NCBI GenBank assembly: GCA_945892985.1
Contig: CAMDDU010000005.1
Span: 83,254-147,253 of the forward strand
Reading direction: 5' to 3'
Source of the DNA: Bordetella parapertussis
GTDB taxonomy: Bacteria > Pseudomonadota > Gammaproteobacteria > Burkholderiales > SG8-39
Length of the DNA: 64,000 bases
Positions 1,358-48,889 of the stretch are shown one piece after another; the first letter of the stretch is position 1; every line of letters begins with the position of its first letter. Below the pieces are notes generated by a model. The model was not told the DNA's origin and searched no databases. It saw only the letters and a program-made list of their open reading frames with translations. The translations under genes and the position numbers were made by a program.

Positions 1358-2008
1358 TTACAGGTCGGCGATGCCGACGAGTATGGCGTACTTGGTCAGT
1401 TCGGCGACATTGTGCAGCTCGAGTTTGCGCATGATGTTGCGGCGATGCACGTCGACGGTGCTCGAGGCGATGTGCAGCAATTTGCCGATTTGCGGCGAAC
1501 TTTTCCCTTGTGCCAGAAGCTGCAATACGGCGGTCTCGCGACGGGCGAGGCGCCTTGATTCAATCGGCGTCGTTGCACCGCCGGGGCCAAGGCCGTTGGA
1601 GTCGACCAGCAATGTCGCCGACTCGGGGCACAGGTAAGTCTTGCCCTTTGCGGCGCTGTTGATCGCATAGACCAACTGGTCGCCGGCCGCCGACTTGACA
1701 ACATAGGCCATGGCGCCCGCCCCCATCATTTCGATGATGAACTGTTTGTAGTTGGAGGCCGACAGCGCGACGACCTTTATTTGCGGATGCTTGGCCCTCA
1801 GGGCGCGCATCGCCTCAATGCCGTTCACCCCGGGCATGCTGACGTCCATGGTGACCACATCGGGCCTGAGTAGCGCGACGGTCTCTACGATCTTGCTGCC
1901 ATCGCCGAGTTCGCCGACCACCTCGATGCCTTCTTCCAGTTCCAGCATCACGCGCAGCGCCTGGCGGAACATGGTGTGATCGTCGACCAGTAATGTGCGG
2001 ATGCTCAT
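1358..2008 (-). CDS. NarL/FixJ (LuxR-type HTH) family response regulator
   Basis: Receiver motifs LLVDDH, DVVTMDVSMPG and KVVALS are present, with a C-terminal LuxR HTH (RETAVLQLLAQGKSSPQIGKLLHIASSTVDVHRRNIMRKL). Its ATG overlaps the kinase stop (ATGA at 2005-2008). Confidence 0.9.
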   Translation of the reverse strand: MSIRTLLVDDHTMFRQALRVMLELEEGIEVVGELGDGSKIVETVALLRPDVVTMDVSMPGVNGIEAMRALRAKHPQIKVVALSASNYKQFIIEMMGAGAMAYVVKSAAGDQLVYAINSAAKGKTYLCPESATLLVDSNGLGPGGATTPIESRRLARRETAVLQLLAQGKSSPQIGKLLHIASSTVDVHRRNIMRKLELHNVAELTKYAILVGIADL

Positions 2009-19136: not shown

Positions 19137-19174
19137 TTTATAAACTTTCATACGTGAAAACCGGCTTCAGACGG

Positions 19175-19729
19175 ATGTTTCAGGACGATAAAGGTGACGG
19201 AACTGTCACCACTAAGGCTGTCCGCGCTGGACTTGTCACGGCGCGGCCTTGCGATGCCGGCTTCAGCTTGATCGAATTGATGGTGGTGGTAGGCATCATC
19301 GCCATACTCGCGCTGATGATGATTCCCGGCTATCAGGACAAGCTGATCCGGGACCAGATTGTCGAGGCCATGCCGCTGGCCGACATTGCCAAGTTGCCGG
19401 TGGCGCTGAGCAGGACCCTTGCGCAGGTTTTTCCCGCCGACAACACCGAGGCGGGCTTGCCCGTGGCTGACAAGATCGTCAATAACTTCATCAGCGCGGT
19501 GAGCGTGCAGGCGGGGGCGGTTCATATCACTTTTGGTAACCGCGCCAACGGCAATATCCGCGGCAAGGTCCTGAGCTTGCGTCCGGCCACGGTGGAGGAC
19601 GCGCCCATCGTGCCGGTCACCTGGGTGTGCGGCTATGCCGCGCCGCCGGCGAAAATGACCGTCAAGGGTGAGAACAAGACCACTATAGCGGCCAATTTCC
19701 TGCCCTTCATTTGCCGCGCTCCCGGATGA
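19175..19729 (+). CDS. Type IV pilin (prepilin-type N-terminal cleavage/methylation domain)
   Basis: G|FSLIELMVVVGIIAILALMMIPGY with Glu at +5. A C-terminal Cys pair (WVCGY...FICR) fits a disulfide loop. The only in-frame starts are the ATG at 19175 and the GTG at 19154, giving a 29- or 36-aa leader. Confidence 0.8.
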   Translation: MFQDDKGDGTVTTKAVRAGLVTARPCDAGFSLIELMVVVGIIAILALMMIPGYQDKLIRDQIVEAMPLADIAKLPVALSRTLAQVFPADNTEAGLPVADKIVNNFISAVSVQAGAVHITFGNRANGNIRGKVLSLRPATVEDAPIVPVTWVCGYAAPPAKMTVKGENKTTIAANFLPFICRAPG

Positions 19730-33807: not shown

Positions 33808-34296
33808 TCAGGCCTTCACGCTGCTCAAGCGCAGCATGAGCGTCATCGGATGCGTCGACGAGGGCTGAAACCCGTAGTGTTCGTAAAACTGCTTGGCCTT
33901 CTCGTGAAGGGCATGCACGAGAAGGGCTCTTACGCCCGCGTTCTGCGATACGGCCACCGCGCGATTGACCGCGTCCTGCAGCAAGGCGGCGCCCAAGTGC
34001 AATCCCTGCGCCCCGCGATCGACCGCAAGCCGGGCGAGAACCATGACAGGAACCGGATCAGGCATGTTGCGTCGCACGCCGCTCGTTGCGAGGTGGTGCG
34101 AAACGGCGCCGGCCGCCATGGCGTAGTAACCGTGGACGCGGCCGCCCTCGTCGATGACGACGAAGGTGCGGCTTGCACCACTTGACTGGTTGGACAATGC
34201 CCGACGCTTAAACCATTCATCGAGCACGACCTCGCCGCACTCGAAGTCATCCAGTCGATGTGAAGCCACCAAGGGCTCCGGCAGATCGAGTTGCAA
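33808..34296 (-). CDS. GNAT-family acetyltransferase toxin (TacT/AtaT/KacT type)
   Basis: H....FECGE..LDEWFKRRAL N-terminal signature, RLAVDRGAQGLHLGAALL acetyl-CoA loop, and FYEHYGF. TTG start 2 nt after the antitoxin stop. Confidence 0.8.
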   Translation of the reverse strand: MQLDLPEPLVASHRLDDFECGEVVLDEWFKRRALSNQSSGASRTFVVIDEGGRVHGYYAMAAGAVSHHLATSGVRRNMPDPVPVMVLARLAVDRGAQGLHLGAALLQDAVNRAVAVSQNAGVRALLVHALHEKAKQFYEHYGFQPSSTHPMTLMLRLSSVKA

Positions 34297-34298
34297 GC

Positions 34299-34577
34299 TC
34301 AGGCCTTCGCGGACTTTCTGCCCCAGGGGGCCTTGACCGCCATGAGGCGCTCAAGCCCCGGATTGCGCGCGGGCGGCGCGTCGAGCAGCTTGGTGAACTG
34401 CCGGAACTTCTCGGCATCCAATTTGAAAAATACCTGATCGAGTAATACCGACTGAGCCTTGTCGCAGGCGGCTTCGAGCATGAAGTCGGAGCGGTTCTTG
34501 CCGAGCAGCTGCGCAGCCTGATCGATCAGCTCCCGCTGCTCGGGACGTGCCCGCAGGTTGATGGCGGCATCGCGCAT
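34299..34577 (-). CDS. DUF1778 (TacA-type, RHH) antitoxin
   Basis: The ATG at 34577 follows AGGAGA. INLRARPEQRELIDQAAQLLGKNRSDFMLEAA is the DUF1778 signature. The longer ORF to 34664 was trimmed. Confidence 0.8.
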   Translation of the reverse strand: MRDAAINLRARPEQRELIDQAAQLLGKNRSDFMLEAACDKAQSVLLDQVFFKLDAEKFRQFTKLLDAPPARNPGLERLMAVKAPWGRKSAKA

Positions 34578-34873
34578 GGGTTTCTCCTGGTTCGTACACA
34601 CAACAGATATACGCATCTTACGGTGACGTATAGCAGTTGTCAACACACTACGGGTCACGGACAAAAGCGTCGTCCCAAAGCGCGATTGCCCGGCATGGTG
34701 GGGTAGATGTTGAACTGATGGTTAATCACCGCACAGTTGCGCAACCGACGCTCTTCATAAACCGAAAGGCCATCCTTCTGCAGGATGGCCCGGACTATTC
34801 CGGGTTGAAATGCGTGACCCATACTGGCGCGAAGAAGCTAGGGTTTGTCGAGTCCATGGGCAACGCTTATGCC

Positions 34874-38837: not shown

Positions 38838-39953
38838 CTAATAATGCCCGGCGTTGGTCAGCAGTTCGGTAAGCAGCCGCCATTCTTCAACGGAACGAAC
38901 CGGCAGCGATACGAGCTGCGGCTGCTCATGCCAGGCTTGCATCGGTCCGACTGATGCCTTGTGTTTGTCCATAAAGCGCTGTGCATAATGCAGCCAGTCC
39001 GCATTGTAGCCCCCTTGCGAGGCATGCACGAGCAGCAGGCTGTTGCAGGTGGCGCAATCGAGACCCATTTGTGCCGCCCGGTAGCTGAAATCCACATCAT
39101 AGAGATGCCAGCCGTCGAACGTGGCTTCGTCAAAACCGACATGTAGGGCAGTTTCGCGGCGCATTGCGAGAAAAACGCCGTCAAGCGCCTGCAATCCGGC
39201 GCTTTCGGGCTCGTTGACCCCAAACAGCGTGGTAATCCGCCTCAATTGGTCTCCGGGCATGGCGACCTGCCCGCATAAATGTGGATATCCGGCGAAATGC
39301 CACGCCGCGCCAAGGAGTTTTCGCGATCCGGCGACGCCGACGATATCGTGTCTTTCCAGCGCATCGAGCAGGCGCGCGGCAAAGTCGGCATTGACGATTC
39401 GTGCATCATCATGGGCGAGTATGACGATTTCACCGCATGCGGCGCGCAGGCCGCGGTTGTAGCCCGAGGCAAGCGCACTGGCATCGTGAATGCCGATGAT
39501 TTCGTGTTCAAGGCCGGCGAGTAGTTGTTGGTACATGGCCTTGGTTTCGGCGAACCGGGTCGCGTTGGCGCTGCATATGATGACCGAGAGGGTTTTACGT
39601 TTGGAGTCTGGCAGGGTCATGTTGCCGGCTTGCCTGCCAGCGGCAAGGTCGATGCGTGCGCGACAAAGGGCATGGTGGACGCTAGCCTGCAGGCTGAGTG
39701 GATACGCGGGCTTGAGCCGGATGCAGTCAGCGAAGGCCTTGGCGGCAGAGACATAATCGTTCTGCTCTTCGAGGCTGCAGCCGAGCAGGTAGTGCAGCGG
39801 GGGCAGGTCTGGTTCGGCGTCGATGGCTTGTCGCGCGAGGCGTATCGCGGTGGGGAAATCGCCCTTACTCGACGCCGCCACAGCGCGTTGATAGAGCGCA
39901 TCTACGGTAACGCCGCCCGCCTGGCGCAAGCGTTCGAAAAGACCCTTCAACAC
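38838..39953 (-). CDS. TPR-repeat + GT-A-like glycosyltransferase (paralog 2)
   Basis: It aligns over its whole length with the upstream paralog (LSVIICS, HEIIGIHDA, GYNRG, HDD, FDGWHLYDVDFS, HASQG). The start is set at the GTG at 39953 (or the TTG at 39950), where homology begins. It overlaps the paralog-1 stop within GTGTTGA. The ORF extension to 40115 was rejected. Confidence 0.7.
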   Translation of the reverse strand: MLKGLFERLRQAGGVTVDALYQRAVAASSKGDFPTAIRLARQAIDAEPDLPPLHYLLGCSLEEQNDYVSAAKAFADCIRLKPAYPLSLQASVHHALCRARIDLAAGRQAGNMTLPDSKRKTLSVIICSANATRFAETKAMYQQLLAGLEHEIIGIHDASALASGYNRGLRAACGEIVILAHDDARIVNADFAARLLDALERHDIVGVAGSRKLLGAAWHFAGYPHLCGQVAMPGDQLRRITTLFGVNEPESAGLQALDGVFLAMRRETALHVGFDEATFDGWHLYDVDFSYRAAQMGLDCATCNSLLLVHASQGGYNADWLHYAQRFMDKHKASVGPMQAWHEQPQLVSLPVRSVEEWRLLTELLTNAGHY

Positions 39954-41089
39954 GGCGGGTGGCCGGCGAGGATCAGGTGCTTGGTGATGGACAGCCACTC
40001 CTCTGTTGACGGCATGGTGATTGCGGGCGGCGCGAGTTGTGCAAACCCGACCGGCCCTGTGAAGGTCAGATGGCGCTCGTGCTTGTTTAGAAAACGGTCG
40101 CGGTAGAAACCCCACTTTTCATCGAATTTTCCGCGCGAGGCGTGCGTCATCACCTGGTCGTTGGCTATGGCGCAACGGTAGCCTTTCAGGTGCGCGGAAA
40201 AGCTGAAGTCGATGTCGTAGAGGTGCCAGCCGTCGAAGGTCTTTTCGTCGAAGGGCAGTTGTAGCGCGAGTTCTCGTCGCACTGCGAGAAAAAAGCCGTC
40301 CATGACCTGCACGCTTTCGGCGGCCAGGCCATAAGTGCCGAAAAAATTGGCGACCGTGCCGGCCCCGTCATCGGCAGGAACGCCGACCTGCCCGCGCAGG
40401 TTCGGCCAGCCGCAGCCAAACCAGGTCGCACCCGAAAGATGGGTCGCGCCGACGGCGCCGATGAGGTCGTGCTGATCCAGGCTGGCAACCAGGCGTGCGG
40501 CGAAGTCCGGCGTGAGGATATCCACGTCATCATGCGAGAAAATAAGAATATCGCCCTTGCTGCGCGCGACGCCGCGGTTGTAGCCCTCGCAAAGCGAGCG
40601 CGCGTCGTGGATGCCGATAATCTCGTGCGGTACCCGTTCCAGCAGGCGCATATACAGCGCGGATGCCTGTTGAAAACGTCCCTCGTCAATGCTGCAAATA
40701 ATCACCGAGAGTAGCGGGGGCTTTTCAGGGAGGGCGGGTGGCGGGAAAAAAACGGATTCGCCGCGGCCCAGCCTCAGCCTTGAGTGGGCCACCGCCAGGA
40801 ATACCTGGCAATGCAGGGCCAGTGGATACGGGGGCGTGCGGACCAGGGCGTCGGTGAGCGCTGACACGGCGGCCGCATCGCTATTTTTTTTGAGCAGGCA
40901 GCGCCCGAGCCGGTAATGGGGTTCGGGCATTGCGGGCGATAGTGCGATCGCCGCGTGAAGCTGCGCCATGGCGCCATCCAGGTCGCCTTGTGCCGACAAG
41001 GCCGACGCCTGCGCGAGATGCGCCAGTGCACGCGTCTCCCGCGACGCGCGTCCGCTTAGAAGTGATTTGAATTGCTCAAGAACGCGCAT
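39947..41089 (-). CDS. TPR-repeat + GT-A-like glycosyltransferase (paralog 1)
   Basis: The ATG start is followed by about 110 aa of TPR-like helices, then LLSVIICS, HEIIGIHDA, GYNRG, SHDD and FDGWHLYDIDFS. Confidence 0.7.
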   Translation of the reverse strand: MRVLEQFKSLLSGRASRETRALAHLAQASALSAQGDLDGAMAQLHAAIALSPAMPEPHYRLGRCLLKKNSDAAAVSALTDALVRTPPYPLALHCQVFLAVAHSRLRLGRGESVFFPPPALPEKPPLLSVIICSIDEGRFQQASALYMRLLERVPHEIIGIHDARSLCEGYNRGVARSKGDILIFSHDDVDILTPDFAARLVASLDQHDLIGAVGATHLSGATWFGCGWPNLRGQVGVPADDGAGTVANFFGTYGLAAESVQVMDGFFLAVRRELALQLPFDEKTFDGWHLYDIDFSFSAHLKGYRCAIANDQVMTHASRGKFDEKWGFYRDRFLNKHERHLTFTGPVGFAQLAPPAITMPSTEEWLSITKHLILAGHPPC

Positions 41090-41107
41090 CGGGTGAGGGT
41101 CTGCTTG

Positions 41108-42331
41108 CTAAGGTTTTTTGGCTCGCCCCAGCAGTCGGCGCAGCGCATTCACGGGGCCGGCGCCCGGTTCGGGCTGTTGCGCTGGCAGGCGTTGTGCGGG
41201 GGCGGCAAGCGGTGGCGCGCCCCAGGTTTTTTTTTCGGCGCGCAGCACATTAAGCTCGTGCTGCATTCTCATCAGCGCCTGTTCGGCCGAAATCACCTTG
41301 CTCATCCCCAGCATGACATCCTGCGCGAGTGACGATCCGCTGACTTCGAACAGCGGCAGGGTGAACAGCTGTGATTCGGTGGCGGCCCCCACCAGTGCGC
41401 TTTCGGTGCCGCCGTAGCGGTGCAGGCAGTCCATGGCGAACAGGAAAAACGCCGGCGCTTGCGGGGAGGCGATGGCGCATTGCAACGCGTGTTCCGCCAG
41501 GCGCAGGTCGCGGCTTGGTGCGGCCGGTTGCCAGGAAAACAGCGGATCGCCCTCGAGTGGCGCGCCGGCAACCGCATCGGCCGGCGCGCCATCAGCGAAA
41601 TGGCGCAGTACGCGATAGTACTCGTGGGCGAGGCGCGCGCCCATGGGCATGGAGGCGCGGGAAAGGTTGCCGCCGCCGGTGTTAACCCTGTACTCCACCA
41701 GCCGCTCGTGCGAGAGGCGCAGTTCGTACTTGCCAAGCAGTCGCACCCAGTAGTCGTAGTCTTGCAACTGCAGCATAAGCGGGTCGAACTCGCCGATATC
41801 GTGTACGGCATCGGTCCTTAAAAGCGGCGTGGCGGCGCAGAGGCAGTTTCCGTTTTTGAACAGCCAGGCGAGCCATTGTTTCCTGTCAAAGTTTGCACCA
41901 CCGATGTCCTTGGTGAGCGATCCGTGGGCTGAATCGGCCATGCGTGTGCCATCAGAATCGATCAGCCAGGGTATGCCGAACAGGGCGGCGACTTCCGGGT
42001 GCGACTCCATGTAGCCGAGCTGCCTTTCGAGTTTTTCGGGCAACCACAGATCATCTGACGCACACAAGGCGATGTACTTGCCGCGTGCGCGGCGCATGGC
42101 GGCGTTCAGATTGACGCTTGGACCCGAACGCAGGGGTTGGCGCACCGCGTTAATACGTGGATCCTCATAGGAGCGAATGACCTCGAAGGTAAGGTCCGAA
42201 GAGCAATCGTCGTTGATAAGCAGCTCAAAGTCCCCGAAGCTCTGGGCGAGAATGCTTTCGATCGCAAATCCGACATAAGCGGCGTGGTTGTAGGCCGGCA
42301 TACATACGCTAACAAGCGGGGTGTGGCTCAT
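41108..42331 (-). CDS. Family 2 glycosyltransferase with a C-terminal extension of about 150 aa
   Basis: VSVCMPAYNHAAYVGFAIESILAQSFGDFELLINDDCSSD, and a DxD at ASDD. Start is the ATG at 42331. Paralog of 47771..48889. Confidence 0.85.
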   Translation of the reverse strand: MSHTPLVSVCMPAYNHAAYVGFAIESILAQSFGDFELLINDDCSSDLTFEVIRSYEDPRINAVRQPLRSGPSVNLNAAMRRARGKYIALCASDDLWLPEKLERQLGYMESHPEVAALFGIPWLIDSDGTRMADSAHGSLTKDIGGANFDRKQWLAWLFKNGNCLCAATPLLRTDAVHDIGEFDPLMLQLQDYDYWVRLLGKYELRLSHERLVEYRVNTGGGNLSRASMPMGARLAHEYYRVLRHFADGAPADAVAGAPLEGDPLFSWQPAAPSRDLRLAEHALQCAIASPQAPAFFLFAMDCLHRYGGTESALVGAATESQLFTLPLFEVSGSSLAQDVMLGMSKVISAEQALMRMQHELNVLRAEKKTWGAPPLAAPAQRLPAQQPEPGAGPVNALRRLLGRAKKP

Positions 42332-42332
42332 A

Positions 42333-43427
42333 TCAGACCTTGGTCGCTCGAGCGACCGCCTGTGCGGTTCCGGCAATATCAAAGTCCCAGCCTATGGGCA
42401 GGCTCAACACCCGGTCGGCCAGCGCTTCTGCGCGCGGGAAGGCGCCGCGGCGAAAACCCATTGTGGCGTAGGCGCCTTGCAGGTGCGGTGGACACGGGTA
42501 ATGGATGAGCGTGGCGATTCCCGCCGCGGCGAGTGTTTTCTGCAGCTGGTCGCGTTCGGCGCTTTGCACCACGAACAAATGCCAGACCGGTTCGCCCGCT
42601 GGCGCGGGGGATGGCAGCACAAGCTTGGTTGATGCCAACGCTTCCAGGTACTGGCCGGCTTGCTGGCGGCGGCGTGCGTTGCCCGCATCCAGCCCGGGAA
42701 GCTTGACGCGCAGGCAGGCTGCCTGCATTTCATCAAGACGGGAATTGCCACCCTGTACCGGATGCACGTAGCGTTCCGTTGAGCCGTAGCTGCGCAGGGC
42801 CCGTATCCTGTCCGCCAGTGCCTTGTCGCCGGTTACAACTGCGCCGCCATCGCCCAGCGCCCCGAGGTTCTTGGCCGGGTAAAAACTGAACGCCGCGGCG
42901 TGGCCCAGTGCGCCGGTGCGGCACCCCTTGAAGCGCGCGCCATGCGCCTGCGCGGCGTCCTCAAGTACGAACAGTCCTTGCTTTTGCGCCACGGCATTGA
43001 TCGCATCCATGTCGGCCGGCTCGCCGTAAAGGTGGACCGGTATGATCGCGCGCGTCCGGGGCGTGATTGCGGCTTCGATGCCCGACGGGTCGATGTTGAA
43101 GCCGGCGGGTATCGGCTCGACCGGGACAACGGTTGCCCCGCAGGCGGTAACCGCAAGCCAGGTAGCGATGAAGGTGTGGCTGGGCACGATGACCTCATCG
43201 CCTGGGCCGATGCCGGCGGCGCGCAGTGCGAGGACCAGCGCTTCAAGCCCGTTACCCACGCCAACACAGTGCCCGGCCCCGCAGTAGTTGGCAAACTCAT
43301 TCTCGAATGCCTCAAGCTCAGGGCCGAGAATGTAATGGGATGCCGCCCGCACGCGGGTCAGGGCGGCGTCGAGCTGTGTCCCTGCCTCGGCATTGATAGC
43401 CGCAAGGTCAAGAAACGGGATGTTCAC
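42333..43427 (-). CDS. DegT/DnrJ/EryC1/StrS family PLP-dependent sugar aminotransferase (FdtB/WecE-like)
   Basis: Motifs: LE.FE..FA.Y.G, LEDAAQAHGA, and SFYPAKNLGALGDGGAV (the PLP lysine). The GTG start at 43427 overlaps the FdtA stop (GTGA). Confidence 0.9.
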   Translation of the reverse strand: MNIPFLDLAAINAEAGTQLDAALTRVRAASHYILGPELEAFENEFANYCGAGHCVGVGNGLEALVLALRAAGIGPGDEVIVPSHTFIATWLAVTACGATVVPVEPIPAGFNIDPSGIEAAITPRTRAIIPVHLYGEPADMDAINAVAQKQGLFVLEDAAQAHGARFKGCRTGALGHAAAFSFYPAKNLGALGDGGAVVTGDKALADRIRALRSYGSTERYVHPVQGGNSRLDEMQAACLRVKLPGLDAGNARRRQQAGQYLEALASTKLVLPSPAPAGEPVWHLFVVQSAERDQLQKTLAAAGIATLIHYPCPPHLQGAYATMGFRRGAFPRAEALADRVLSLPIGWDFDIAGTAQAVARATKV

Positions 43428-43834
43428 CCCTTTCCCGCCGCCTCGGCAAACGCAGCATAGCTTCGGTAGTAGTCCGACTCGTCGTAAAACTCCGAAGCGA
43501 GCGCCATGCAAACCGCCCCGGATGAGAAATTGTCAATTTCGCGCCACACCATCGACGGAATATAGAGACCAAAATAAGAGCGATTCAGATGGATTTTATT
43601 TTTCGACGCGCCGTCGTCGATCAGTACGTCGAAGCTTCCCGACATCGCGATGAGCACTTGCTGCAGCTGCTTATGGGCGTGACCGGCTCGAGATGCGCCA
43701 CCGGGAACATCGTAGAGATAATAAACGCGCTTTATATCGAAGGGCACATGGCGTCCCGATTCGACAAAAGTGAGGTTGCCGCGCGCATCGGGTACGCGGG
43801 GCAACTCGATCAGGCGGCAATCCTGGATGCTCAT
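43424..43834 (-). CDS. FdtA/WxcM-like cupin: dTDP-4-keto-6-deoxyhexose 3,4-ketoisomerase
   Basis: 136 aa. RGNLTFVE, FDIKRVYYLYDVP.G..RG.HAHK and the size are typical of FdtA. Confidence 0.8.
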   Translation of the reverse strand: MSIQDCRLIELPRVPDARGNLTFVESGRHVPFDIKRVYYLYDVPGGASRAGHAHKQLQQVLIAMSGSFDVLIDDGASKNKIHLNRSYFGLYIPSMVWREIDNFSSGAVCMALASEFYDESDYYRSYAAFAEAAGKG

Positions 43835-43893
43835 AAGCAGTCCTGTGACGCCGCGGTATTCGGCGGTTCGATTCGGTTCGGGGCGAAGTACAT

Positions 43894-44622
43894 TCAGGCA
43901 GTCCTTGTTGCGACAACGCCGATATTGGCCAGCAATTCCTTTGGCAGTTGCGACCCTATCTCGTTCATTGCAGAGAGAAGCTCAGCCGAGTGCTCGAGCA
44001 TCATCGAGTTGGCGACAGGTTTGAGGAAAAAGCCAGTTGCTTCGGCCACCGCAAAGCCACCGGCTTTGAGGTCTGCTGCCAGTGTTTCATGTGAGTAAAC
44101 CCGCTGGTGTCCCACCAGTTTGTCGCGCGCCCCAAGCGAGTCCAGTTTTGGTTGCAGTTTCATCAGTACGGCCAGGCGGCGGTGCAAGGATTCCTTGTTG
44201 GGTACGACGACGATGAGCCGCCCGCCGGGGGCCAGCCACGTGCGTATGCGACGCAGCAGTGCAACCGGATCGTCCACGTGTTCGAGTATGTGCGAAGCGA
44301 CCACGGCGTCAAAGGGGGCGTCGGGGCTGAACTCTTCGAACAGGGCATGGATTGCGGTGAGGTCCGTGCCGAACTCGCGTTGCAGCGCCCCGTGCAATAT
44401 CTGAGAACCCTCCACTACCGTGAGACTGCGCCGCGCGCCAAGCATCATTCGCGTGATGATGCCCTCACCGAAACCGAGTTCGAGTACGCGGCTTGCGGGG
44501 CCCAGTGCCTGCAAAATCCAGTCCCCGCAGTAACGCTGGCAGAGGTCTTCTATGTGCTTGTCAGGAACCTTGGCGCTGGTGTGATATTCACGTGCAATGC
44601 GGTCCAGTTCCGACTTGCTCAT
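43894..44622 (-). CDS. Class I SAM-dependent methyltransferase (paralog B)
   Basis: VLELGFGEG (motif I), DAVVASHILEHV and GGRLIVVVPN. ATGA overlap with the upstream flavoprotein gene. Confidence 0.8.
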   Translation of the reverse strand: MSKSELDRIAREYHTSAKVPDKHIEDLCQRYCGDWILQALGPASRVLELGFGEGIITRMMLGARRSLTVVEGSQILHGALQREFGTDLTAIHALFEEFSPDAPFDAVVASHILEHVDDPVALLRRIRTWLAPGGRLIVVVPNKESLHRRLAVLMKLQPKLDSLGARDKLVGHQRVYSHETLAADLKAGGFAVAEATGFFLKPVANSMMLEHSAELLSAMNEIGSQLPKELLANIGVVATRTA

Positions 44623-46040
44623 GCGGTCGCTCCCAACTCGGCGGCAAGCTTCAGGCCTTGCACGATCTGGTCGTTCATCGCGCCGACATGGAAGCCTGCA
44701 GAGGGCCCGGCCAGGCGAATCGCCGGCAAATGCCGGTGCAGCCAGTCTTGTTGTTGCAGGAACGCACTGCGGTTCGCGTTGTTTGGGATCATCAAGGCAT
44801 TGGTCAGTATCTTTACCGCGCAGTATGCCACCGACCGGGGGGTGTCTATCAGGCCCAAGTCTGCCAGTTCGTGCAAAAGTGCCTGCTCCTGCTCTTCCGC
44901 ACTTGCGAGTCCGCGCCCGGCAAGTATCTCCGGGCTGAATTCAACGACCAGTCGGTGCTCATCCGCCTTGAGGTGGGCGCATCCCTCCTGGTCGGTGACA
45001 CGGTAGATCGCGCGCTTGGCTTCGGGAACAAAAACGGTGCCCAGGCCCGGTCGGATGTGGTCTTGTCCCACGGCGACAAAGCAAAGGCCTATGGTGGAGC
45101 GTGCGATTTCGGTCCCCGGCGTTGCCGGATCGGCAATGGCCAGAAGCGCGCCCGGATCCAGGGTCCATATGAATTCATTGGCGGAGACGGTATTGCCGTC
45201 CTCCAGTTCAAGCGTGGTCGGCGCTGTCCGACTGATTTTGGCTATGGCACTGCGAATGGTGCGAATGTATGGATGGGCCTCGATTTCATGCGCCAACGCG
45301 CGCACCAGCGCTCCGGCCGATCCTTCTGCCGGATAGTGGAAGCGGGTGTCTGGCAGCCGTTGGGGTGTCGCGCCAAATTGCGACAAAAGCGTTTCCGGGT
45401 AGTAAAGCGGCAGCCAGGCGGCCCGGTGATAGATCGCCAGAATGTCACTGCACGCAACGCCGAGTATTTTTCGGCACAAGGGCTCGAACAGGACTTCATG
45501 CAGCGTCCGGCCATGATTTGCGATTGAGACAGAGGCGAAATCCAACCCGGAAAACGCAGGATCAACCGATTTTCTGGAGGCATGCAGCAGATGCGGGCCT
45601 GCGGCACAGATGGCTTTGAGTTCCTGTCGGATGCGTTCGCATGTTTTCCCGTCGAATGAGGTGACGGACGCTGCATGGTTGGCGATTACCATGTCCGGCA
45701 TGGCACGGCCGTCTATGAATAAGGCCGGATCGGGTGCGATCACGGTGCGGACGCGTTGCTCCACGTAGTCGCGCACTATGCCGGTGAACCGTCCGCAGTC
45801 ATTACGTCGCGTCGGGTCATAGCCGCGAACGTCCGGCGAAGGCTCGCGGTTCGAGGCGCTGAACTCATACAAGACCATGCCCGGGTCGAAGCGGCGGGAG
45901 TCGAGTTTCAGTCCGGCGAAGTGCCCCCCCCACTGGGCGGCGGGGTTGACCAGGGCGACCTGTCGGCCTGTTGTGGCGATGGACTGTGCAGCCACCATTG
46001 CGGCAAGATTATTTCCAGCGATGATGACGGCACCCGGCAT
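44619..46040 (-). CDS. NAD(P)/FAD-binding oxidoreductase-like protein (amine-oxidase / UDP-galactopyranose-mutase superfamily) with a degenerate dinucleotide motif
   Basis: The N-terminal beta-alpha-beta VIIAGNNLAAMVAA is followed by WGGH. The overall length and C-terminal pattern resemble the flavin amine-oxidase fold. Start is the ATG at 46040. Confidence 0.6.
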   Translation of the reverse strand: MPGAVIIAGNNLAAMVAAQSIATTGRQVALVNPAAQWGGHFAGLKLDSRRFDPGMVLYEFSASNREPSPDVRGYDPTRRNDCGRFTGIVRDYVEQRVRTVIAPDPALFIDGRAMPDMVIANHAASVTSFDGKTCERIRQELKAICAAGPHLLHASRKSVDPAFSGLDFASVSIANHGRTLHEVLFEPLCRKILGVACSDILAIYHRAAWLPLYYPETLLSQFGATPQRLPDTRFHYPAEGSAGALVRALAHEIEAHPYIRTIRSAIAKISRTAPTTLELEDGNTVSANEFIWTLDPGALLAIADPATPGTEIARSTIGLCFVAVGQDHIRPGLGTVFVPEAKRAIYRVTDQEGCAHLKADEHRLVVEFSPEILAGRGLASAEEQEQALLHELADLGLIDTPRSVAYCAVKILTNALMIPNNANRSAFLQQQDWLHRHLPAIRLAGPSAGFHVGAMNDQIVQGLKLAAELGATA

Positions 46041-46041
46041 T

Positions 46042-46779
46042 TCAGTCGCTTCTGCGCGCAATTGCGTAAAGCTCGGACCCGGCGTCGGGTAGGTGGCGAC
46101 CTAGCTTGTAGAGCCCGTCCAGCATGGCATCGGTCAGCAGCCCTTGTTCGCGCAGTATCGCCATTTGGGCGTGGGTGAAGGGTTTGATGAAAAAACTGCC
46201 GCTTTCGAGAACGTCGAAACCCGCGGCCTTTAGGCGGGTTTCAAGGGTGTCACGGTCGTAGGTTGCGGCCTGTTGCATGCGCTGCTGCGTTGCTGATTTT
46301 TCGAACACGTCCTTGATCAAACCCATTTCCAGCGCCAGCAAGCGGTGGAAGGAGCGCGCGTTGGGGACGTAGACATGCAGTCTGGTGCCGCGGTTGCAAA
46401 GGGTCCGAGCCGCGGTGAGCAGGGCCGCTGGATCGGGCACTTCGTGGAGCAGGCTGCTAAGCACAACGCAGTCGAAATCATGGTTGGCGAGGTTGGGGGC
46501 GAGCTGTTCCAAGGTGCCTCGTAGTACGCGTATCGCGGCATTGGCTCCCGCCGCCGACAAGGCCATGGCGTGAAAATGCTCGGCGGGTTCGATGACATGC
46601 ATGGATTCAAAGCCGGCGTAATGAAGGAATAGCGCCTCCGCCCCGCAGCCGACCTCGAGCACCCGCATGCCACCGTGGTTTGCGAGGGACTCAAGCAGGT
46701 GGCGCCGGCGGTAGGCGGCCTGGATGTTCTCGAAAGGCAACTCCCCGTAATCCAGCTGATAACGGTCAAGGTCACGCAC
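46042..46779 (-). CDS. Class I SAM-dependent methyltransferase (paralog A)
   Basis: VLEVGCGAE, DCVVLSSLLHEV and GTRLHVYVPN. The GTG start at 46779 overlaps the upstream stop (GTGCGTGA). The ORF extension to 47202 was rejected. Confidence 0.75.
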   Translation of the reverse strand: MRDLDRYQLDYGELPFENIQAAYRRRHLLESLANHGGMRVLEVGCGAEALFLHYAGFESMHVIEPAEHFHAMALSAAGANAAIRVLRGTLEQLAPNLANHDFDCVVLSSLLHEVPDPAALLTAARTLCNRGTRLHVYVPNARSFHRLLALEMGLIKDVFEKSATQQRMQQAATYDRDTLETRLKAAGFDVLESGSFFIKPFTHAQMAILREQGLLTDAMLDGLYKLGRHLPDAGSELYAIARRSD

Positions 46780-47764
46780 GGTCTGGCAGGTCCTTGGTAA
46801 GAATGAGTTTGAGCGATTCGTGAAACCCCAGGCTGCGCTTGAAGCGAATAAGGCCGTAATTGGGCTCACCCGCTTCGGTTGCGATGCCGGTATCGAGTAT
46901 GGTGATACCCCCGGACTGGCAGTGTTCGTAAATAGCCGAGGCGAGCAGCACAACAGGCGAATAATCCTGCACCCCTTCGATATCGCCCCAGTAAAAAACA
47001 GACATGATTTTTTCGCTGACGCCGATGCAGATCGCCGCGGCGACGAGCTCTTGGTTGCGCCATGCGCCGAAAAACCGCATTCGCTCACCGAAGGTATCAA
47101 CCATGGACATGATGGAAGGGAAATCCATGGTGACCGGATAGCCCTTGCGCAAGCGGTTGTCGGCAATGATGCGGTAGGCTTGTTCGTAACGGGATGCGTC
47201 AAGGTGCGATGTTGTGAAGCCTTCGCGAACGCATTTGTTCAGGCGTTTGCGGTTACCGTAATCCATGCGACCGGACAGGGGCACGGCGCTGACATCAATG
47301 TCGTAATTGATTTCCTGGCCGAAAATGCCAAATCCGCGCCGGTAAAAAACATTGAAACAGTTGGCGAACAGCGATGGGTCGTGGCTTGCCGGGGGCATCA
47401 CGATTTGCAGGCGTGAGGCCTGCATTTGTGCCATTTCGTTTTCGACGGCACAGGCGAAGAGTTCGATCTGTTCCAGCGACAGAGCGGACACTGTGCTGAT
47501 GCCGCCGAAGGTGCCGCGCGCCGGGCTGCGGTAATAGCCCTCGCCGGTGGCGGTGAAATGCATGCAGGCGATGACCGCGCTGCTTTTGCGCTCGATCAAC
47601 TGGAAGTAGTGCGCATCCTGCCCGGCATGCAGGCGGAAAAATTCTACGCTGTTGAAAATATGCATCGGTGCCGCCGGCGCAAATGCGTTCACCAGAAGGG
47701 CGTATTTCTCGTCCAACTCAATGCGGCGCCCGGTGTTTTGCGATGATAGCGGTAGCGTGGACAT
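46772..47764 (-). CDS. FemAB-like / Acetyltransf_6 (GNAT-fold) family protein
   Basis: 330 aa. A central NRKRLNKCVREGF and a C-terminal ...ILDTG......G...FKRSLGF match the FemAB/BioF2-like pattern of duplicated GNAT folds. Confidence 0.6.
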   Translation of the reverse strand: MSTLPLSSQNTGRRIELDEKYALLVNAFAPAAPMHIFNSVEFFRLHAGQDAHYFQLIERKSSAVIACMHFTATGEGYYRSPARGTFGGISTVSALSLEQIELFACAVENEMAQMQASRLQIVMPPASHDPSLFANCFNVFYRRGFGIFGQEINYDIDVSAVPLSGRMDYGNRKRLNKCVREGFTTSHLDASRYEQAYRIIADNRLRKGYPVTMDFPSIMSMVDTFGERMRFFGAWRNQELVAAAICIGVSEKIMSVFYWGDIEGVQDYSPVVLLASAIYEHCQSGGITILDTGIATEAGEPNYGLIRFKRSLGFHESLKLILTKDLPDRA

Positions 47765-47770
47765 CGGGGC

Positions 47771-48889
47771 CTATCCGCCTTTTATCCATGACAGCCAATC
47801 GGGTTTGGCGGGCTTCACCGTTGCGGCGTGTCCGTCCGGCAGTTGCGCTTTCAGTGCCGAGATGACTTTTTCCTGCTCACGGAGTATGTGCGCGTACTTT
47901 GCCCGGTAAAGGTCGAGTTCCGCCGACAGGCGGGTGACGTCTTTGGCTGTGATCGCATTCGGTTCGCCCCGGCATTCGGCCGGCGTGCTCTCATAGAGCA
48001 TCTCCAGCCCGAAGCGCCGCACCTGCAGGCCGATTTCCTGGCCTGATGTCGATTCGGCATTAACGGCAATCTGGCCAAGTTGCGCGGCGCGCGGCAGGCG
48101 GCCCAGTTCCTGGCTGGCGAATTCTGGTGCAAAAATATCCCGAAACAAGGCCTCATCATAGTGAAGATAGTGCCGCAGAATGCGTTCGGTTTCCCAGGCA
48201 GTGCGCGAAAGTGCCGCAGGCTTTGGGGCGCTGGCGTTGCCGCTGCCTTCGATAATGCGAAACAGCATCAGCATTTCAGGAAGAATGTGGATGTCGTAGC
48301 GGCCCAGCAGGCGCATCCACAGATCAAGGTCGTGCACCTGCGCCAGGCGCTCGTCGTAAAGACCGAGTTCATCATGGCAGCGCCGCCTTAGCAGTGCGGC
48401 CGGGTGGCATAAGCAGTTTCCGGTGAAAAAGAATTTGCGCAACCATTGGGCGCGCGTATGGTTTTCTGACTTGAAAACCCCGCTGTAGAAATTATTGCGC
48501 CCGGAAACGGGCTGGCCGGCGTCGTCGATGAAGGCCGGCAGACCGAAGACTGCGCCGACCTGCGGGTTGTTTTCGAGGTAGTCGACCTGGATTGCAGTTT
48601 TGTCCGGCAGGTAGCAGTCGTCCGAGTTGAGTACCGCGACGTACTCCCCGGTGGAGCGCCGGATGGCGTCGTTCATCGCAGCGCTGACACCACTGTTTTT
48701 CCCCAGGCGTTTGAAACGAATGCGTTCATCGCGGATGGAGGCCACCACGTCGGCCGTTCCATCCGTAGAGCAGTCGTCGGTTATGCAGACCTCAAGATCG
48801 CCGTAGCTCTGGGCCAGCACGCTCTCCACGGCTTCGCGCACGAAACGCTCGTGGTTGTAAGCCGGGATGATGACGCTGACCTTGGGCAT
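47771..48889 (-). CDS. Family 2 glycosyltransferase with a C-terminal extension ending in a coiled coil
   Basis: VSVIIPAYNHERFVREAVESVLAQSYGDLEVCITDDCSTD, and a DxD at NSDD. Start is the ATG at 48889. Confidence 0.85.
   Translation of the reverse strand: MPKVSVIIPAYNHERFVREAVESVLAQSYGDLEVCITDDCSTDGTADVVASIRDERIRFKRLGKNSGVSAAMNDAIRRSTGEYVAVLNSDDCYLPDKTAIQVDYLENNPQVGAVFGLPAFIDDAGQPVSGRNNFYSGVFKSENHTRAQWLRKFFFTGNCLCHPAALLRRRCHDELGLYDERLAQVHDLDLWMRLLGRYDIHILPEMLMLFRIIEGSGNASAPKPAALSRTAWETERILRHYLHYDEALFRDIFAPEFASQELGRLPRAAQLGQIAVNAESTSGQEIGLQVRRFGLEMLYESTPAECRGEPNAITAKDVTRLSAELDLYRAKYAHILREQEKVISALKAQLPDGHAATVKPAKPDWLSWIKGG

What the first reader, a model, noticed from the sequence alone, without database searches (positions are those of the whole stretch)
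38838..48889. Ten-gene, translationally coupled amino-sugar modification / glycosyltransferase operon with no export, polymerase or lipid-carrier genes: candidate soluble protein-targeting glycosylation system
SEEN: ten minus-strand ORFs run from 48889 down to 38838. The junctions are +6, -8, +1, -4, +59, -4, +1, +18 and -7 nt, with four start/stop overlaps (GTGCGTGA, ATGA, GTGA, GTGTTGA), so this is one expression unit. The order is GT2, FemAB/GNAT-like, SAM-MTase, flavoprotein-like, SAM-MTase, FdtA-type cupin, DegT-type aminotransferase, GT2, TPR+GT, TPR+GT. Some stretches (e.g. around 43.5-44.1 kb) look more A/T-rich than the flanking core genes. By eye, none of the ten products has a hydrophobic run long enough for a TM helix. 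ESTABLISHED: an FdtA-type 3,4-ketoisomerase plus a DegT/FdtB-type PLP aminotransferase make dTDP-3-amino-3,6-dideoxyhexose from dTDP-4-keto-6-deoxyglucose. O-antigen, capsule and S-layer loci that use this sugar also carry a polyprenyl-phosphate initiating transferase and Wzx/Wzy or Wzm/Wzt. An N-terminal TPR domain fused to a GT domain is the architecture of dedicated flagellin glycosyltransferases (Caulobacter FlmG, Burkholderia FlmQ). INFERENCE: the operon builds an N-acylated or aminoacylated, methylated 3-amino-dideoxyhexose-containing glycan (four GTs suggest more than one sugar). It then attaches that glycan to cytoplasmic protein substrate(s) rather than to LPS. I cannot match the combination of a FemAB-like enzyme, twin MTases and a flavoprotein around an FdtA/FdtB core to a described pathway. 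rmlA/rmlB and any flagellin gene are absent from the window.
Basis: partly seen in the sequence, partly recalled or inferred. Interest (0 to 1): 0.78.

Follow-up and report, generated by a model that had tools for sequence, protein, structure and literature searches.

The report
Filament-protein glycosylation operon, off-site
This ten-gene operon most likely makes an unusual amino sugar and attaches it inside the cell to a surface-filament protein (flagellin or type IV pilin); it is a new variant of the well-known "flagellin glycosylation island", sitting away from any flagellar gene.

Summary
Ten minus-strand genes run from 48889 to 38838 with the stated junctions and domains, and none has a TM helix. 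The protein-targeting reading is supported by comparative genomics.

- **Sugar genes (G2-G7).** The order is FemX-like, MT, UGM-like flavoprotein fold, MT, FdtA, DegT. The same genes recur in the same order at 35-72% identity between flgL and fliC in Metapseudomonas furukawaii and Pseudomonas pseudonitroreducens-like contigs. That site is the canonical flagellin glycosylation island. The cassette also lies beside flagellin genes in several metagenome lineages.
- **PF13712 catalytic domain of G9/G10.** It is 44-48% identical to glycosyltransferases next to flagellin genes in Dechloromonas, Azonexus and Azovibrio.
- **Closest TPR-bearing relatives of G9/G10.** They sit at the same chromosomal site as here. 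In three lineages they flank the major type IV pilin, never a flagellin.

The acceptor is therefore a filament subunit, and flagellin versus pilin is undecided. FlmG is only an analogue because it is GT-B and these enzymes are GT-A.

A chemical precedent exists. The C. difficile type B flagellin glycan carries Fuc3N capped with amino acids, and its locus holds FemAB-like and FdtB-like genes.

In other phyla the same cassette is coupled to GtrB-like or Wzm/Wzt genes, so an envelope glycan is not excluded (about 15%).

Verdict: a new variant of a known kind, of moderate interest.

The parts
47771..48889 (-). G1. Soluble GT2 glycosyltransferase (372 aa) with a C-terminal extension of about 170 aa that has no known domain.
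   Evidence: Pfam Glycos_transf_2, E 7e-36. It is 34% identical to the N-terminal GT2 domain of the 1211-aa multi-GT2 protein immediately upstream of fliC in M. furukawaii. No TM helix. It is absent from the otherwise syntenic clusters L004 and L012.
46772..47764 (-). G2. FemX/FemAB-like (GNAT-fold) transferase. Proposed to aminoacylate the 3-amino group of the dTDP-sugar.
   Evidence: Pfam Acetyltransf_6, E 4e-4 and below the cut-off. NCBIfam FemAB family, E 1e-5, and FemX, E 4e-4. A family profile hits only FemX in the PDB, E 0.002, colinear over residues 164-286 against 169-290. It is 38-43% identical to the first gene of the Pseudomonas flagellin-island cassette.
46042..46779 (-). G3. Class I SAM-dependent methyltransferase.
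   Evidence: Methyltransf_23, E 4e-15. It is 51-52% identical to the cassette methyltransferase in L095/L096. Its best PDB hit is 2p7h, an uncharacterised methyltransferase, not TylM1 or DesVI.
44619..46040 (-). G4. Protein of a rare family with a UDP-galactopyranose-mutase / protoporphyrinogen-oxidase-like two-domain flavoenzyme fold. The GxGxxG motif is replaced by a conserved GNNLA.
   Evidence: No Pfam hit. Only 78 clusters were found among 5.8 billion. The AF2 model has pLDDT 94 and pTM 0.92. Foldseek gives 4dsh UGM at TM 0.73 and E 1e-20, and also PPOX and amine oxidases.
43894..44622 (-). G5. Second class I SAM-dependent methyltransferase.
   Evidence: Methyltransf_23, E 9e-22. It is 52% identical to the second cassette methyltransferase in L096. 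Its best PDB hit is 2p7h, E 2e-25.
43424..43834 (-). G6. FdtA-type dTDP-4-keto-6-deoxyhexose 3,4-ketoisomerase (cupin).
   Evidence: Pfam FdtA, E 8e-56. It is 62-72% identical to the FdtA of the Pseudomonas flagellin-island cassette.
42333..43427 (-). G7. DegT/FdtB-type PLP sugar aminotransferase.
   Evidence: Pfam DegT_DnrJ_EryC1, E 4e-110. It is 56-60% identical to the cassette aminotransferase in L095/L096.
41108..42331 (-). G8. Soluble GT2 glycosyltransferase (407 aa) with a C-terminal extension.
   Evidence: Pfam Glycos_transf_2, E 1e-28. It is 31% identical to the N-terminal GT2 domain of the M. furukawaii multi-GT2. It is conserved in the syntenic clusters L004, L007, L011 and L012.
39947..41089 (-). 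G9. N-terminal TPR domain of about 110 aa fused to a GT-A glycosyltransferase (PF13712). Candidate protein-directed glycosyltransferase.
   Evidence: Pfam hits are. The AF2 model has pLDDT 91, with helical repeats at residues 1-108 and a GT-A fold at residues 127-375. The best Foldseek hits are polypeptide GalNAc-transferases, E 5e-7, which is generic GT-A similarity. Its orthologue flanks a major pilin gene in L001. The catalytic domain is 44-48% identical to flagellin-adjacent glycosyltransferases.
38838..39953 (-). G10. Paralogue of G9 (39% identity). TPR plus PF13712 GT-A glycosyltransferase.
   Evidence: G10-like genes are the conserved single resident of the YebC/gabD-to-YchF site in related uncultured Burkholderiales. 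Its TPR region aligns with that of the pilin-island enzyme P0038.

Best explanation
The operon is a cytoplasmic O-glycosylation system of the 'flagellin glycosylation island' kind. It is relocated to a variable chromosomal site between a gabD-like gene and an ABC-F gene.

Proposed mechanism (steps 1-3 are inferred from family membership).
1. dTDP-4-keto-6-deoxyglucose comes from RmlA/RmlB encoded elsewhere. G6 (FdtA) isomerises it to the 3-keto sugar.
2. G7 (FdtB-type) aminates that to dTDP-3-amino-3,6-dideoxyhexose.
3. The invariant four-gene sub-block G2-G3-G4-G5 then decorates the sugar. The FemX-like G2 acylates the 3-amino group with an amino acid, probably from aminoacyl-tRNA. The two methyltransferases methylate the amino acid and/or the sugar. 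The UGM/amine-oxidase-fold G4 remodels it, either by ring contraction or by oxidation; which one is unknown.
4. The four soluble glycosyltransferases build and attach a short glycan. The two TPR-GT-A enzymes G9 and G10 use their TPR domains to pick the acceptor protein, and G1 and G8 extend the chain.

Acceptor. It is a secreted filament subunit modified before export. Flagellin (encoded elsewhere) and type IV pilin are about equally likely on present evidence. I put roughly 0.35 on each, both within the 0.72 given to this explanation.

What is shown: gene content, homology, and conserved context.
What is inferred: every enzymatic step and the acceptor.
For: 1. The six-gene cassette has the same order and 35-72% identity between flgL and fliC-flaG-fliD-fliS in Metapseudomonas furukawaii CP086379 and in P. 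pseudonitroreducens-like contigs.
2. The cassette lies within 10 kb of flagellin or flgL in 7 of 42 metagenome loci of 9 kb or more. In one of these, L153, rmlBACD is adjacent. In L135 the order is TPR-GT41-PF13712-GT2 (1548 aa), FdtA, DegT, Fem, MT, G4, MT, TPR-GT41, flagellin, FlaG, FliD, FliS.
3. PF13712 glycosyltransferases 44-48% identical to the G9 catalytic domain sit beside Pfam-verified flagellin and FliD in Dechloromonas denitrificans, D. hortensis, Azonexus caeni, Azovibrio restrictus and Accumulibacter.
4. Orthologues of G9 and G10 flank a canonical major pilin at the same gabD-YchF site in L001. TPR-PF13712 enzymes also sit in pilin-centred arrays of TPR glycosyltransferases in L029 and L091.
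5. None of the ten proteins has a TM helix. The window has no initiating transferase, flippase, polymerase, Wzm/Wzt or GtrB-like gene.
6. Published precedents:
- TPR domains select flagellin for FlmG and Maf-1.
- A TPR-GT41 encoded next to pilA is required for PilA glycosylation in Synechococcus.
- The C. difficile type B flagellin glycan ends in Fuc3N capped with Ala, Gly and taurine, and its locus has FemAB-like and FdtB-like genes.
- The P. aeruginosa PAO1 flagellin glycan carries N,N-dimethylthreonine.
7. Related genomes vary the island content at the same site (L004, L007, L011, L012 and L001, against the single glycosyltransferase in L009). The cluster also has lower GC3 than the core genes. 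Both fit a horizontally exchanged glycosylation island.
Against: - No flagellin gene lies within the 64-kb window or in the 10 kb beyond its left end.
- The only pilin gene is 19 kb away and atypical.
- None of about 28 close TPR-PF13712 loci has flagellin within 10 kb.
- It is unknown whether this lineage is flagellated.
- The same cassette is followed by a GtrB-like membrane GT2 in 8 low-GC loci and accompanied by Wzm/Wzt in 3. The sugar itself is therefore not protein-specific.
- PF13712 domains also occur in the lipooligosaccharide outer-core loci of Acinetobacter.
- G2's FemX similarity is weak (E 0.002). G4 lacks a canonical FAD-binding motif.
- No biochemical data exist for any member.
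Confidence: 0.72

Rival explanations
1. The operon contributes a modified amino sugar and side-chain glycosyltransferases to a cell-envelope glycan such as O-antigen, LOS core, capsule or EPS. The lipid-carrier initiation, flipping or ABC export, and ligation genes would be encoded elsewhere in the genome.
For: - G1 and G8 resemble polysaccharide GT2 enzymes such as TuaG, WcaA and EpsE, all below the equivalog cut-offs. Such enzymes are peripheral and need no TM helix.
- The same sugar cassette is followed by a GtrB-like polyprenyl-phosphate-type GT2 in 8 metagenome loci and accompanied by ABC-2/Wzm plus an ATPase in 3.
- PF13712 is annotated in Acinetobacter LOS outer-core loci.
- Some GT-only PF13712 genes sit next to a protein I judged WbsX-like by eye from its sequence, not checked against any library.
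Against: - The window has no initiating transferase, flippase, polymerase, ligase or exporter.
- Two of the four glycosyltransferases carry TPR protein-interaction domains.
- Their orthologues flank a pilin gene, and their catalytic-domain relatives flank flagellins.
- The closest cassette-bearing genomes from named cultured species place it in flagellin islands.
Confidence: 0.15
2. It is a soluble glycosylation system whose acceptor is neither flagellin nor pilin. The acceptor would be another protein (for example an adhesin, autotransporter or S-layer protein) or a small molecule or glycolipid.
For: - In most close relatives the TPR-PF13712 gene sits alone among housekeeping genes (YebC/RuvABC on one side, YchF/Pth on the other). 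No filament gene is nearby. A conserved, unlinked acceptor of unknown identity is therefore possible.
- Cytoplasmic glycosylation of adhesins before export is an established mode (HMW1C, TibC/Aah; from my own knowledge).
Against: - No candidate adhesin or S-layer gene is linked in any of about 170 loci examined.
- The only recurrent acceptor-type neighbours are flagellin and major pilin.
Confidence: 0.1

Closest known systems
Pseudomonas flagellin glycosylation islands between flgL and fliC (P. aeruginosa PAK orfA-N; PAO1 PA1088-PA1091 with FgtA; the P. syringae fgt/viosamine island)
   Same: - Soluble GT2 glycosyltransferases, a DegT-type aminotransferase and methyltransferases, with no export or lipid-carrier genes.
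- Glycosylation of flagellin in the cytoplasm.
- The exact cassette Fem-MT-G4-(MT)-FdtA-DegT occupies this site in M. furukawaii and in P. pseudonitroreducens-like contigs, at 35-72% identity to G2-G7.
- Amino acid plus N-methylation chemistry is documented for PAO1, which carries N,N-dimethylthreonine.
   Different: - The window cluster is not next to any flagellar gene.
- The single 1211-1440-aa multi-GT2 protein (FgtA position) is replaced by two single-domain GT2s plus two TPR-PF13712 enzymes.
- The cassette-bearing Pseudomonas islands are themselves uncharacterised.
Clostridioides difficile RT027/023 type B flagellin modification locus (GT1-GT3, CDR20291_0244-0247)
   Same: - The locus has a FemAB-superfamily protein, an FdtB-like aminotransferase, GT2 enzymes and a methyltransferase activity.
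- The product is a short O-glycan ending in Fuc3N, whose amino group carries an amino-acid-containing cap of Ala, Gly and taurine.
- This is the only characterised glycan that matches the chemistry predicted here.
   Different: - It is Gram-positive and adjacent to fliC.
- It uses an ATP-grasp ligase and an ornithine-cyclodeaminase-like enzyme that are absent here.
- It lacks the FdtA, UGM-like G4, twin methyltransferases and TPR glycosyltransferases.
FlmG-class flagellin glycosyltransferases (Caulobacter, Brevundimonas)
   Same: - An N-terminal TPR domain is fused to a C-terminal glycosyltransferase domain.
- The TPR domain binds the acceptor.
- The enzyme is soluble and cytoplasmic.
   Different: - FlmG has a GT-B domain and transfers pseudaminic or legionaminic acid.
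- G9/G10 have a GT-A (PF13712) domain and a much shorter TPR region.
- No sequence relationship was detected.
Cyanobacterial Ogt (TPR-GT41) acting on PilA (Synechococcus elongatus, Nostoc OgtA)
   Same: A soluble TPR glycosyltransferase is encoded next to pilA, is required for pilin glycosylation, and is proposed to act in the cytoplasm. This is the same arrangement as the pilin-centred TPR-GT arrays in L001, L029 and L091, which contain relatives of G9/G10.
   Different: - It uses a GT41 (GT-B) catalytic domain and UDP-GlcNAc as donor, with no dedicated sugar cassette.
- In the window the pilin gene is 19 kb away.
FdtA/FdtB/FdtC (and QdtA/B/C) dTDP-3-acetamido-3,6-dideoxyhexose pathways of S-layer and O-antigen loci
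   Same: An FdtA-type isomerase plus a DegT-type 3-aminotransferase act on dTDP-4-keto-6-deoxyglucose.
   Different: - No left-handed-beta-helix N-acetyltransferase (FdtC/QdtC) is present. Its place is taken by the FemX-like, MT, UGM-like, MT block.
- No polysaccharide assembly or export genes are present.

Membership tests
Flagellin glycosylation island (FGI) | Located within or next to the flagellar filament genes (fliC/flgL/fliD) | tested here: not met
   tblastn with three flagellins finds nothing in the 64-kb window. The flanks are gabD/TRAP and ABC-F/TctC genes. The 10 kb beyond the left end holds cytochrome oxidase genes.
Flagellin glycosylation island (FGI) | Soluble glycosyltransferases plus nucleotide-sugar modification genes, with no flippase, polymerase or initiating transferase | tested here: met
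   Pfam and NCBIfam scans of all ten products. Hydropathy scan. tblastn for Wzm and GtrB.
Flagellin glycosylation island (FGI) | Homology and synteny with gene sets that occupy bona fide FGI positions | tested here: met
   G2-G7 are colinear, at 35-72% identity, with the genes between flgL and fliC in L095, L096 and L097. L135 and L153 give the same result.
Flagellin glycosylation island (FGI) | Flagellin carries the glycan | not testable with these tools
   This needs mass spectrometry of flagellin from a carrier strain.
FlmG-class flagellin glycosyltransferase | N-terminal TPR domain | tested here: met
   TPR Pfam hits for G9 and G10. The AF2 model has helical repeats at residues 1-108.
FlmG-class flagellin glycosylation enzyme | C-terminal GT-B glycosyltransferase domain | tested here: not met
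   G9 and G10 carry PF13712/GT2 (GT-A). The AF2 model matches GT-A enzymes. FlmG is described as GT-B.
Maf (MAF_flag10/DUF115) flagellin glycosyltransferase | MAF_flag10 domain | tested here: not met
   None of the ten products has such a Pfam hit.
dTDP-3-amino-3,6-dideoxyhexose pathway (FdtA/FdtB type) | FdtA-type 3,4-ketoisomerase and DegT-type aminotransferase encoded together | tested here: met
   G6 is PF05523 at E 8e-56, and G7 is PF01041 at E 4e-110. Their start and stop codons overlap.
dTDP-3-amino-3,6-dideoxyhexose pathway (FdtA/FdtB type) | RmlA/RmlB supply of dTDP-4-keto-6-deoxyglucose | tested here: not met
   The window has no rmlABCD (tblastn). These genes are presumably elsewhere in the genome. 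rmlBACD is adjacent to the cassette in L153.
FemABX aminoacyl-tRNA-dependent transferases | Sequence or fold membership | tested here: inconclusive
   - G2 scores 21 bits against a cut-off of 22 for Acetyltransf_6.
- Its homologues in L095 pass the precomputed-hit threshold of E 1e-5.
- NCBIfam gives FemAB at E 1e-5 and FemX at E 4e-4, far below the equivalog cut-offs.
- The family profile hits FemX at E 0.002 and is colinear.
FemABX aminoacyl-tRNA-dependent transferases | Use of aminoacyl-tRNA as donor | not testable with these tools
   This needs an in-vitro assay.
UDP-galactopyranose mutase / PPOX-amine oxidase flavoenzymes | Two-domain FAD-dependent fold | tested here: met
   AF2 pLDDT is 94. 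Foldseek gives 4dsh at TM 0.73 and E 1e-20.
UDP-galactopyranose mutase / PPOX-amine oxidase flavoenzymes | Canonical GxGxxG dinucleotide-binding motif | tested here: not met
   The family consensus is GNNLAxMVAA, in which only the first Gly is invariant. No Pfam FAD or NAD family reaches threshold for G4.
O-antigen/capsule assembly locus (Wzx/Wzy- or ABC-dependent) | Polyprenyl-phosphate initiating transferase, flippase or ABC exporter, and polymerase in the locus | tested here: not met
   None was found among the ten products or their flanks.

The most novel reading that the evidence does not exclude
G9 and G10 define a new class of protein O-glycosyltransferase, a short TPR domain fused to a PF13712 GT-A domain. 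In this betaproteobacterial lineage the class would glycosylate the type IV pilin in the cytoplasm, before membrane insertion, using an aminoacylated and methylated 3-amino-3,6-dideoxyhexose made by a widely distributed but uncharacterised six-gene cassette. That would be a pilin glycosylation route in Proteobacteria independent of the periplasmic PilO/TfpO/PglL/TfpW oligosaccharyltransferases. It would also show that one sugar cassette is swapped between flagellin and pilin systems.
Probability: 0.3. Interest if true: 0.75.

Novelty: new variant of a known kind. Interest (0 to 1): 0.52.

Why it matters
Flagellin and pilin glycans shape motility, filament stability, phage and predator recognition, and innate immune detection.

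1. The six-gene cassette (FemX-like, two methyltransferases, UGM-fold protein, FdtA, FdtB) is conserved from contigs of 22% GC to 74% GC. It is present in culturable Pseudomonas-group strains, yet its product is unknown. Solving it would probably reveal a new amino-acid-bearing deoxyamino sugar. It might also reveal a tRNA-dependent sugar-aminoacylation step.
2. TPR-PF13712 enzymes would be a further family of acceptor-selecting cytoplasmic protein glycosyltransferases, beside FlmG, Maf and GT41. Such enzymes are useful for glycoengineering.
3. The pilin-centred TPR-GT arrays suggest that cytoplasmic pilin glycosylation is not confined to cyanobacteria.

Tried and rejected
- **FlmG membership.** Rejected. 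FlmG is GT-B and G9/G10 are GT-A.
- **FlmQ comparison.** The one open-access paper found gives no domain or sequence data, so this was not testable.
- **G3/G5 as TylM1/DesVI-type sugar N,N-dimethyltransferases.** Those enzymes do not appear among the PDB hits. The best hit is an uncharacterised methyltransferase, 2p7h.
- **PDB sequence search with G9.** It gave only TPR hits plus a weak GT-A hit of unknown function (2qgi, E 0.008).
- **Literature search for PF13712 / Glyco_tranf_2_5.** It gave only Acinetobacter OCL annotations.
- **Promoter and terminator scan.** Results were at chance level, so operon boundaries remain undefined.
- **Plasmid collection searches with G4 and G9.** G9 gave no match and G4 only one partial low-identity hit to a hypothetical protein.
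- **Walking the source contig 10 kb beyond the window's left end.** It holds cytochrome oxidase genes and no flagellar or pilus genes.
- **Variable genes next to single TPR-GT genes in relatives (clusters c26, c54, c86, c130-c142).** Read by eye from their sequences, with no library scan, they looked like transport and metabolic genes rather than glycan genes.
- **My crude ORF caller.** It sometimes picked antisense shadow ORFs in high-GC loci (for example 'c1' and 'c140'), and I disregarded these.
- **Flagellin detection in loci.** It was later verified by Pfam on representative hits and by precomputed Pfam labels.

Full report
**1. Observation**

The ORF list and the reverse-strand sequence confirm ten consecutive minus-strand genes from 48889 down to 38838. 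The junctions are exactly as stated (+6, -8, +1, -4, +59, -4, +1, +18, -7). The four start/stop overlaps GTGCGTGA, ATGA, GTGA and GTGTTGA are also present.

Pfam and NCBIfam confirm most of the domain calls:
- G1 and G8 are GT2.
- G3 and G5 are class I SAM methyltransferases.
- G6 is FdtA (E 8e-56).
- G7 is DegT (E 4e-110).
- G9 and G10 are TPR plus Glyco_tranf_2_5 (PF13712).

Two calls needed more work. G2 is only a sub-threshold GNAT/FemAB hit. A profile built from 32 homologues finds FemX, and essentially nothing else, in the PDB (E 0.002, colinear). G4 has no Pfam hit. Its AlphaFold model (pLDDT 94) matches UDP-galactopyranose mutases (TM 0.73), protoporphyrinogen oxidases and amine oxidases. 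The family replaces GxGxxG with a conserved GNNLA.

No product has a TM-like segment. The composition bias is mild: GC3 is 0.65-0.74 against 0.74-0.85 in flanking core genes.

The window has no rmlABCD, flagellin, Wzm or GtrB-like gene.

The operon boundaries are not established. A gabD-like gene ends 43 nt upstream and an ABC-F gene starts 108 nt downstream on the same strand. Promoter and terminator scans are at chance level.

**2. The sugar module is a flagellin-island cassette**

G4 belongs to a rare family, with 78 clusters in 5.8 billion. Two members come from cultured organisms.

In Metapseudomonas furukawaii CP086379 and in P. pseudonitroreducens-like contigs, the genes run in this order: Acetyltransf_6 (G2-like), MT (G3-like), G4-like, an optional second MT (G5-like), FdtA, DegT, and then a 1211-1440-aa multi-GT2 protein. 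They lie between flgK-flgL and fliC-flaG-fliD-fliS. This is the classical Pseudomonas flagellin glycosylation island site.

Identities to the window proteins are 38-43% (G2), 51-52% (G3), 35% (G4), 52% (G5), 62-72% (G6) and 56-60% (G7). G1 and G8 are 31-34% identical to the first GT2 domain of the large protein.

A profile scan of metagenome contigs returned 80 loci with GC from 22% to 74%:
- 46 loci keep a Fem-like gene next to G4.
- 58 keep a methyltransferase next to G4.
- 43 keep FdtA.
- Among the 42 loci of 9 kb or more, 24 carry the full cassette.
- Among those same 42, 7 have flagellin or flgL within the fetched flank.

In L153 the cassette sits between rmlBACD and a 1471-aa multi-GT2 followed by flagellin. 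In L135 the order is a 1548-aa TPR-GT41-PF13712-GT2 protein, FdtA, DegT, Fem, MT, G4, MT, a TPR-GT41, and then flagellin (phmmer hit). The next three genes fall in the same similarity clusters as the FlaG, FliD and FliS genes that follow fliC in L095.

The cassette is not exclusive to protein systems. In 8 low-GC loci it is followed directly by a GT2 with C-terminal TM helices (GtrB-like). In 3 loci it sits beside an ABC-2 permease and an ATPase. The cassette is therefore a portable sugar module, and the glycosyltransferases around it decide where the sugar goes.

**3. The glycosyltransferases**

G9 homologues are numerous in uncultured Betaproteobacteria and Burkholderiales. A scan of species-representative genomes gave 80 loci. 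Two groups emerge.

(a) PF13712 domains without the G9-type TPR region. These are either stand-alone proteins of about 270 aa or part of proteins of about 1200 aa. They are 44-48% identical to the G9 catalytic domain. They lie within about 3 kb of flagellin genes in Dechloromonas denitrificans, D. hortensis, Azonexus caeni, Azovibrio restrictus, Accumulibacter and others. Pfam confirms the order GT2-TPR, PF13712, TPR-GT41, Flagellin_N/C, FliD in L072. It also confirms PF13712-GT2 followed by flagellin in L061.

(b) The closer TPR-bearing relatives, 47-79% identical in the catalytic domain. They occupy the same chromosomal site as in the window, between the YebC/RuvABC/gabD side and the YchF/Pth/L25 side. 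A G10-like gene is often the only glycosylation gene there. Content at this site varies between relatives:
- The full cassette is present in L004, L007 and L012.
- Only FdtA, DegT and GT2 are present in L011.
- In L001/L002 a canonical, Ser/Thr-rich major type IV pilin gene lies between the G10-like and G9-like genes.

Two further lineages place TPR-PF13712 genes in pilin-centred arrays. L029 has pilA, five GT41 genes (four with TPR repeats), DegT, a TPR-PF13712 gene and a Methyltransf_24 gene. L091 has a MshEN-T2SSE ATPase, an HD-GYP protein, a TPR-PF13712 gene, a TPR-MT24 gene, a TPR-GT41 and a second large TPR protein, pilA and a membrane GT2.

None of about 28 group (b) loci has flagellin within 10 kb.

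The AF2 model of G9 (pLDDT 91) shows a helical TPR region of about 108 residues followed by a GT-A domain. Its best PDB matches are polypeptide GalNAc-transferases, but at generic GT-A level only.

**4. Mechanism**

Steps inferred from established family chemistry:
1. FdtA and an FdtB-type aminotransferase convert dTDP-4-keto-6-deoxyglucose to dTDP-3-amino-3,6-dideoxyhexose.
2. The usual N-acetyltransferase is missing. Its place is taken by the invariant block FemX-like, MT, UGM-fold, MT.
3. I infer aminoacylation of the 3-amino group by G2, then methylation by G3 and G5, then a remodelling step by G4.

Literature precedents for the chemistry:
- The C. difficile type B flagellin glycan is Fuc3N-Rha-Rha3OMe-GlcNAc-Ser, with the Fuc3N capped by Ala, Gly and taurine. 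Its locus holds a FemAB-like and an FdtB-like gene.
- P. aeruginosa PAO1 flagellin carries Rha-phospho-N,N-dimethylthreonine.
- FdtA/FdtB and GT41 genes have been catalogued in Geobacillus and enterobacterial flagellin islands.

Literature precedents for acceptor selection by TPR domains:
- FlmG and Maf-1 use TPR domains to select flagellin.
- A TPR-GT41 encoded beside pilA is needed for PilA glycosylation in Synechococcus and is thought to act in the cytoplasm.

**5. Which acceptor?**

The sugar cassette points to flagellin systems. The TPR glycosyltransferases, which should determine the acceptor, have orthologues that flank pilin rather than flagellin.

Cytoplasmic glycosylation is the norm for flagellin. 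For pilin it is known only in cyanobacteria. I cannot tell whether this organism is flagellated.

I therefore give about 0.72 to 'cytoplasmic glycosylation of a filament subunit', split roughly evenly between flagellin and pilin. I give 0.15 to an envelope glycan whose lipid-carrier steps are encoded elsewhere. I give 0.1 to another acceptor.

**6. Comparison and novelty**

The operon works like a flagellin glycosylation island and shares a homologous cassette with islands at the canonical position. It fails the positional criterion.

Its TPR glycosyltransferases are not FlmG members (GT-A, not GT-B) and not Maf members. It is best filed as a new variant of a known kind.

The points of real interest are:
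- the uncharacterised but very widespread cassette;
- the TPR-PF13712 enzyme class;
- the pilin-centred TPR-GT arrays.

Flagellin glycosylation islands are notoriously diverse, so a specialist would be interested rather than astonished. Interest is about 0.5.

Noticed in passing
window 19154-19729 (+): A type IV pilin gene (Pfam Pilin E 1.7e-11, N_methyl; cleavage motif G|FSLIELM; C-terminal disulfide loop). It lies next to rpoH and ftsXEY, 19 kb from the operon. It is a possible acceptor of the glycosylation system.
   Followed up: partly
L001 7265-11167; L029 849-15902; L091 5963-19340: These are pilin-centred arrays of soluble TPR glycosyltransferases (PF13712 and GT41) in uncultured Burkholderiales-like genomes. 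In L001 the major pilin lies between orthologues of G10 and G9. In L029 it heads a run of five GT41 genes (four with TPR repeats). They look like cytoplasmic-type pilin glycosylation islands, a type reported so far only for cyanobacterial Ogt.
   Followed up: partly
L105, L121, L123, L124, L134, L140, L142, L154 (GtrB-like GT2 after the cassette); L140, L149, L158 (ABC-2 permease plus ATPase): The same Fem-MT-G4-MT(-FdtA-DegT) cassette is coupled to membrane or lipid-carrier-type and ABC-exporter genes in low-GC metagenome lineages. The sugar is therefore probably also used on envelope glycans.
   Followed up: partly
window 33808-34664 (-): A TacA antitoxin (PF08681, E 2e-26) plus GNAT-toxin pair lies in the variable stretch between ychF and tctC. 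Related genomes carry HigB-like or YoeB/Phd modules near the same site.
   Followed up: partly
window 44619-46040 (-) and alignment A2: The G4 family has a UGM/PPOX-type fold, but a strictly conserved GNNLA replaces the GxGxxG dinucleotide-binding motif. Whether it still binds FAD is open.
   Followed up: partly
window 1358-5358 (-): A 1117-aa fusion protein (CheB methylesterase, CheR methyltransferase, PAS, HisKA_3, HATPase) is followed by a LuxR-type response regulator. This is an unusual sensory architecture, unrelated to the finding.
   Followed up: no
window 53612-55642 (-): A 676-aa polytopic membrane protein has no Pfam hit. It is conserved (cluster c67) at the same position upstream of gabD in relatives (L009, L011).
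   Followed up: no
L041, L044, L047, L049, L056, L058, L060, L071, L074 (Candidatus Nitrotoga): A conserved trio of PF13712-related genes (about 1320 aa, 711 aa and 254 aa) has no flagellin or pilin within 10 kb. Its context is unexplained.
   Followed up: no
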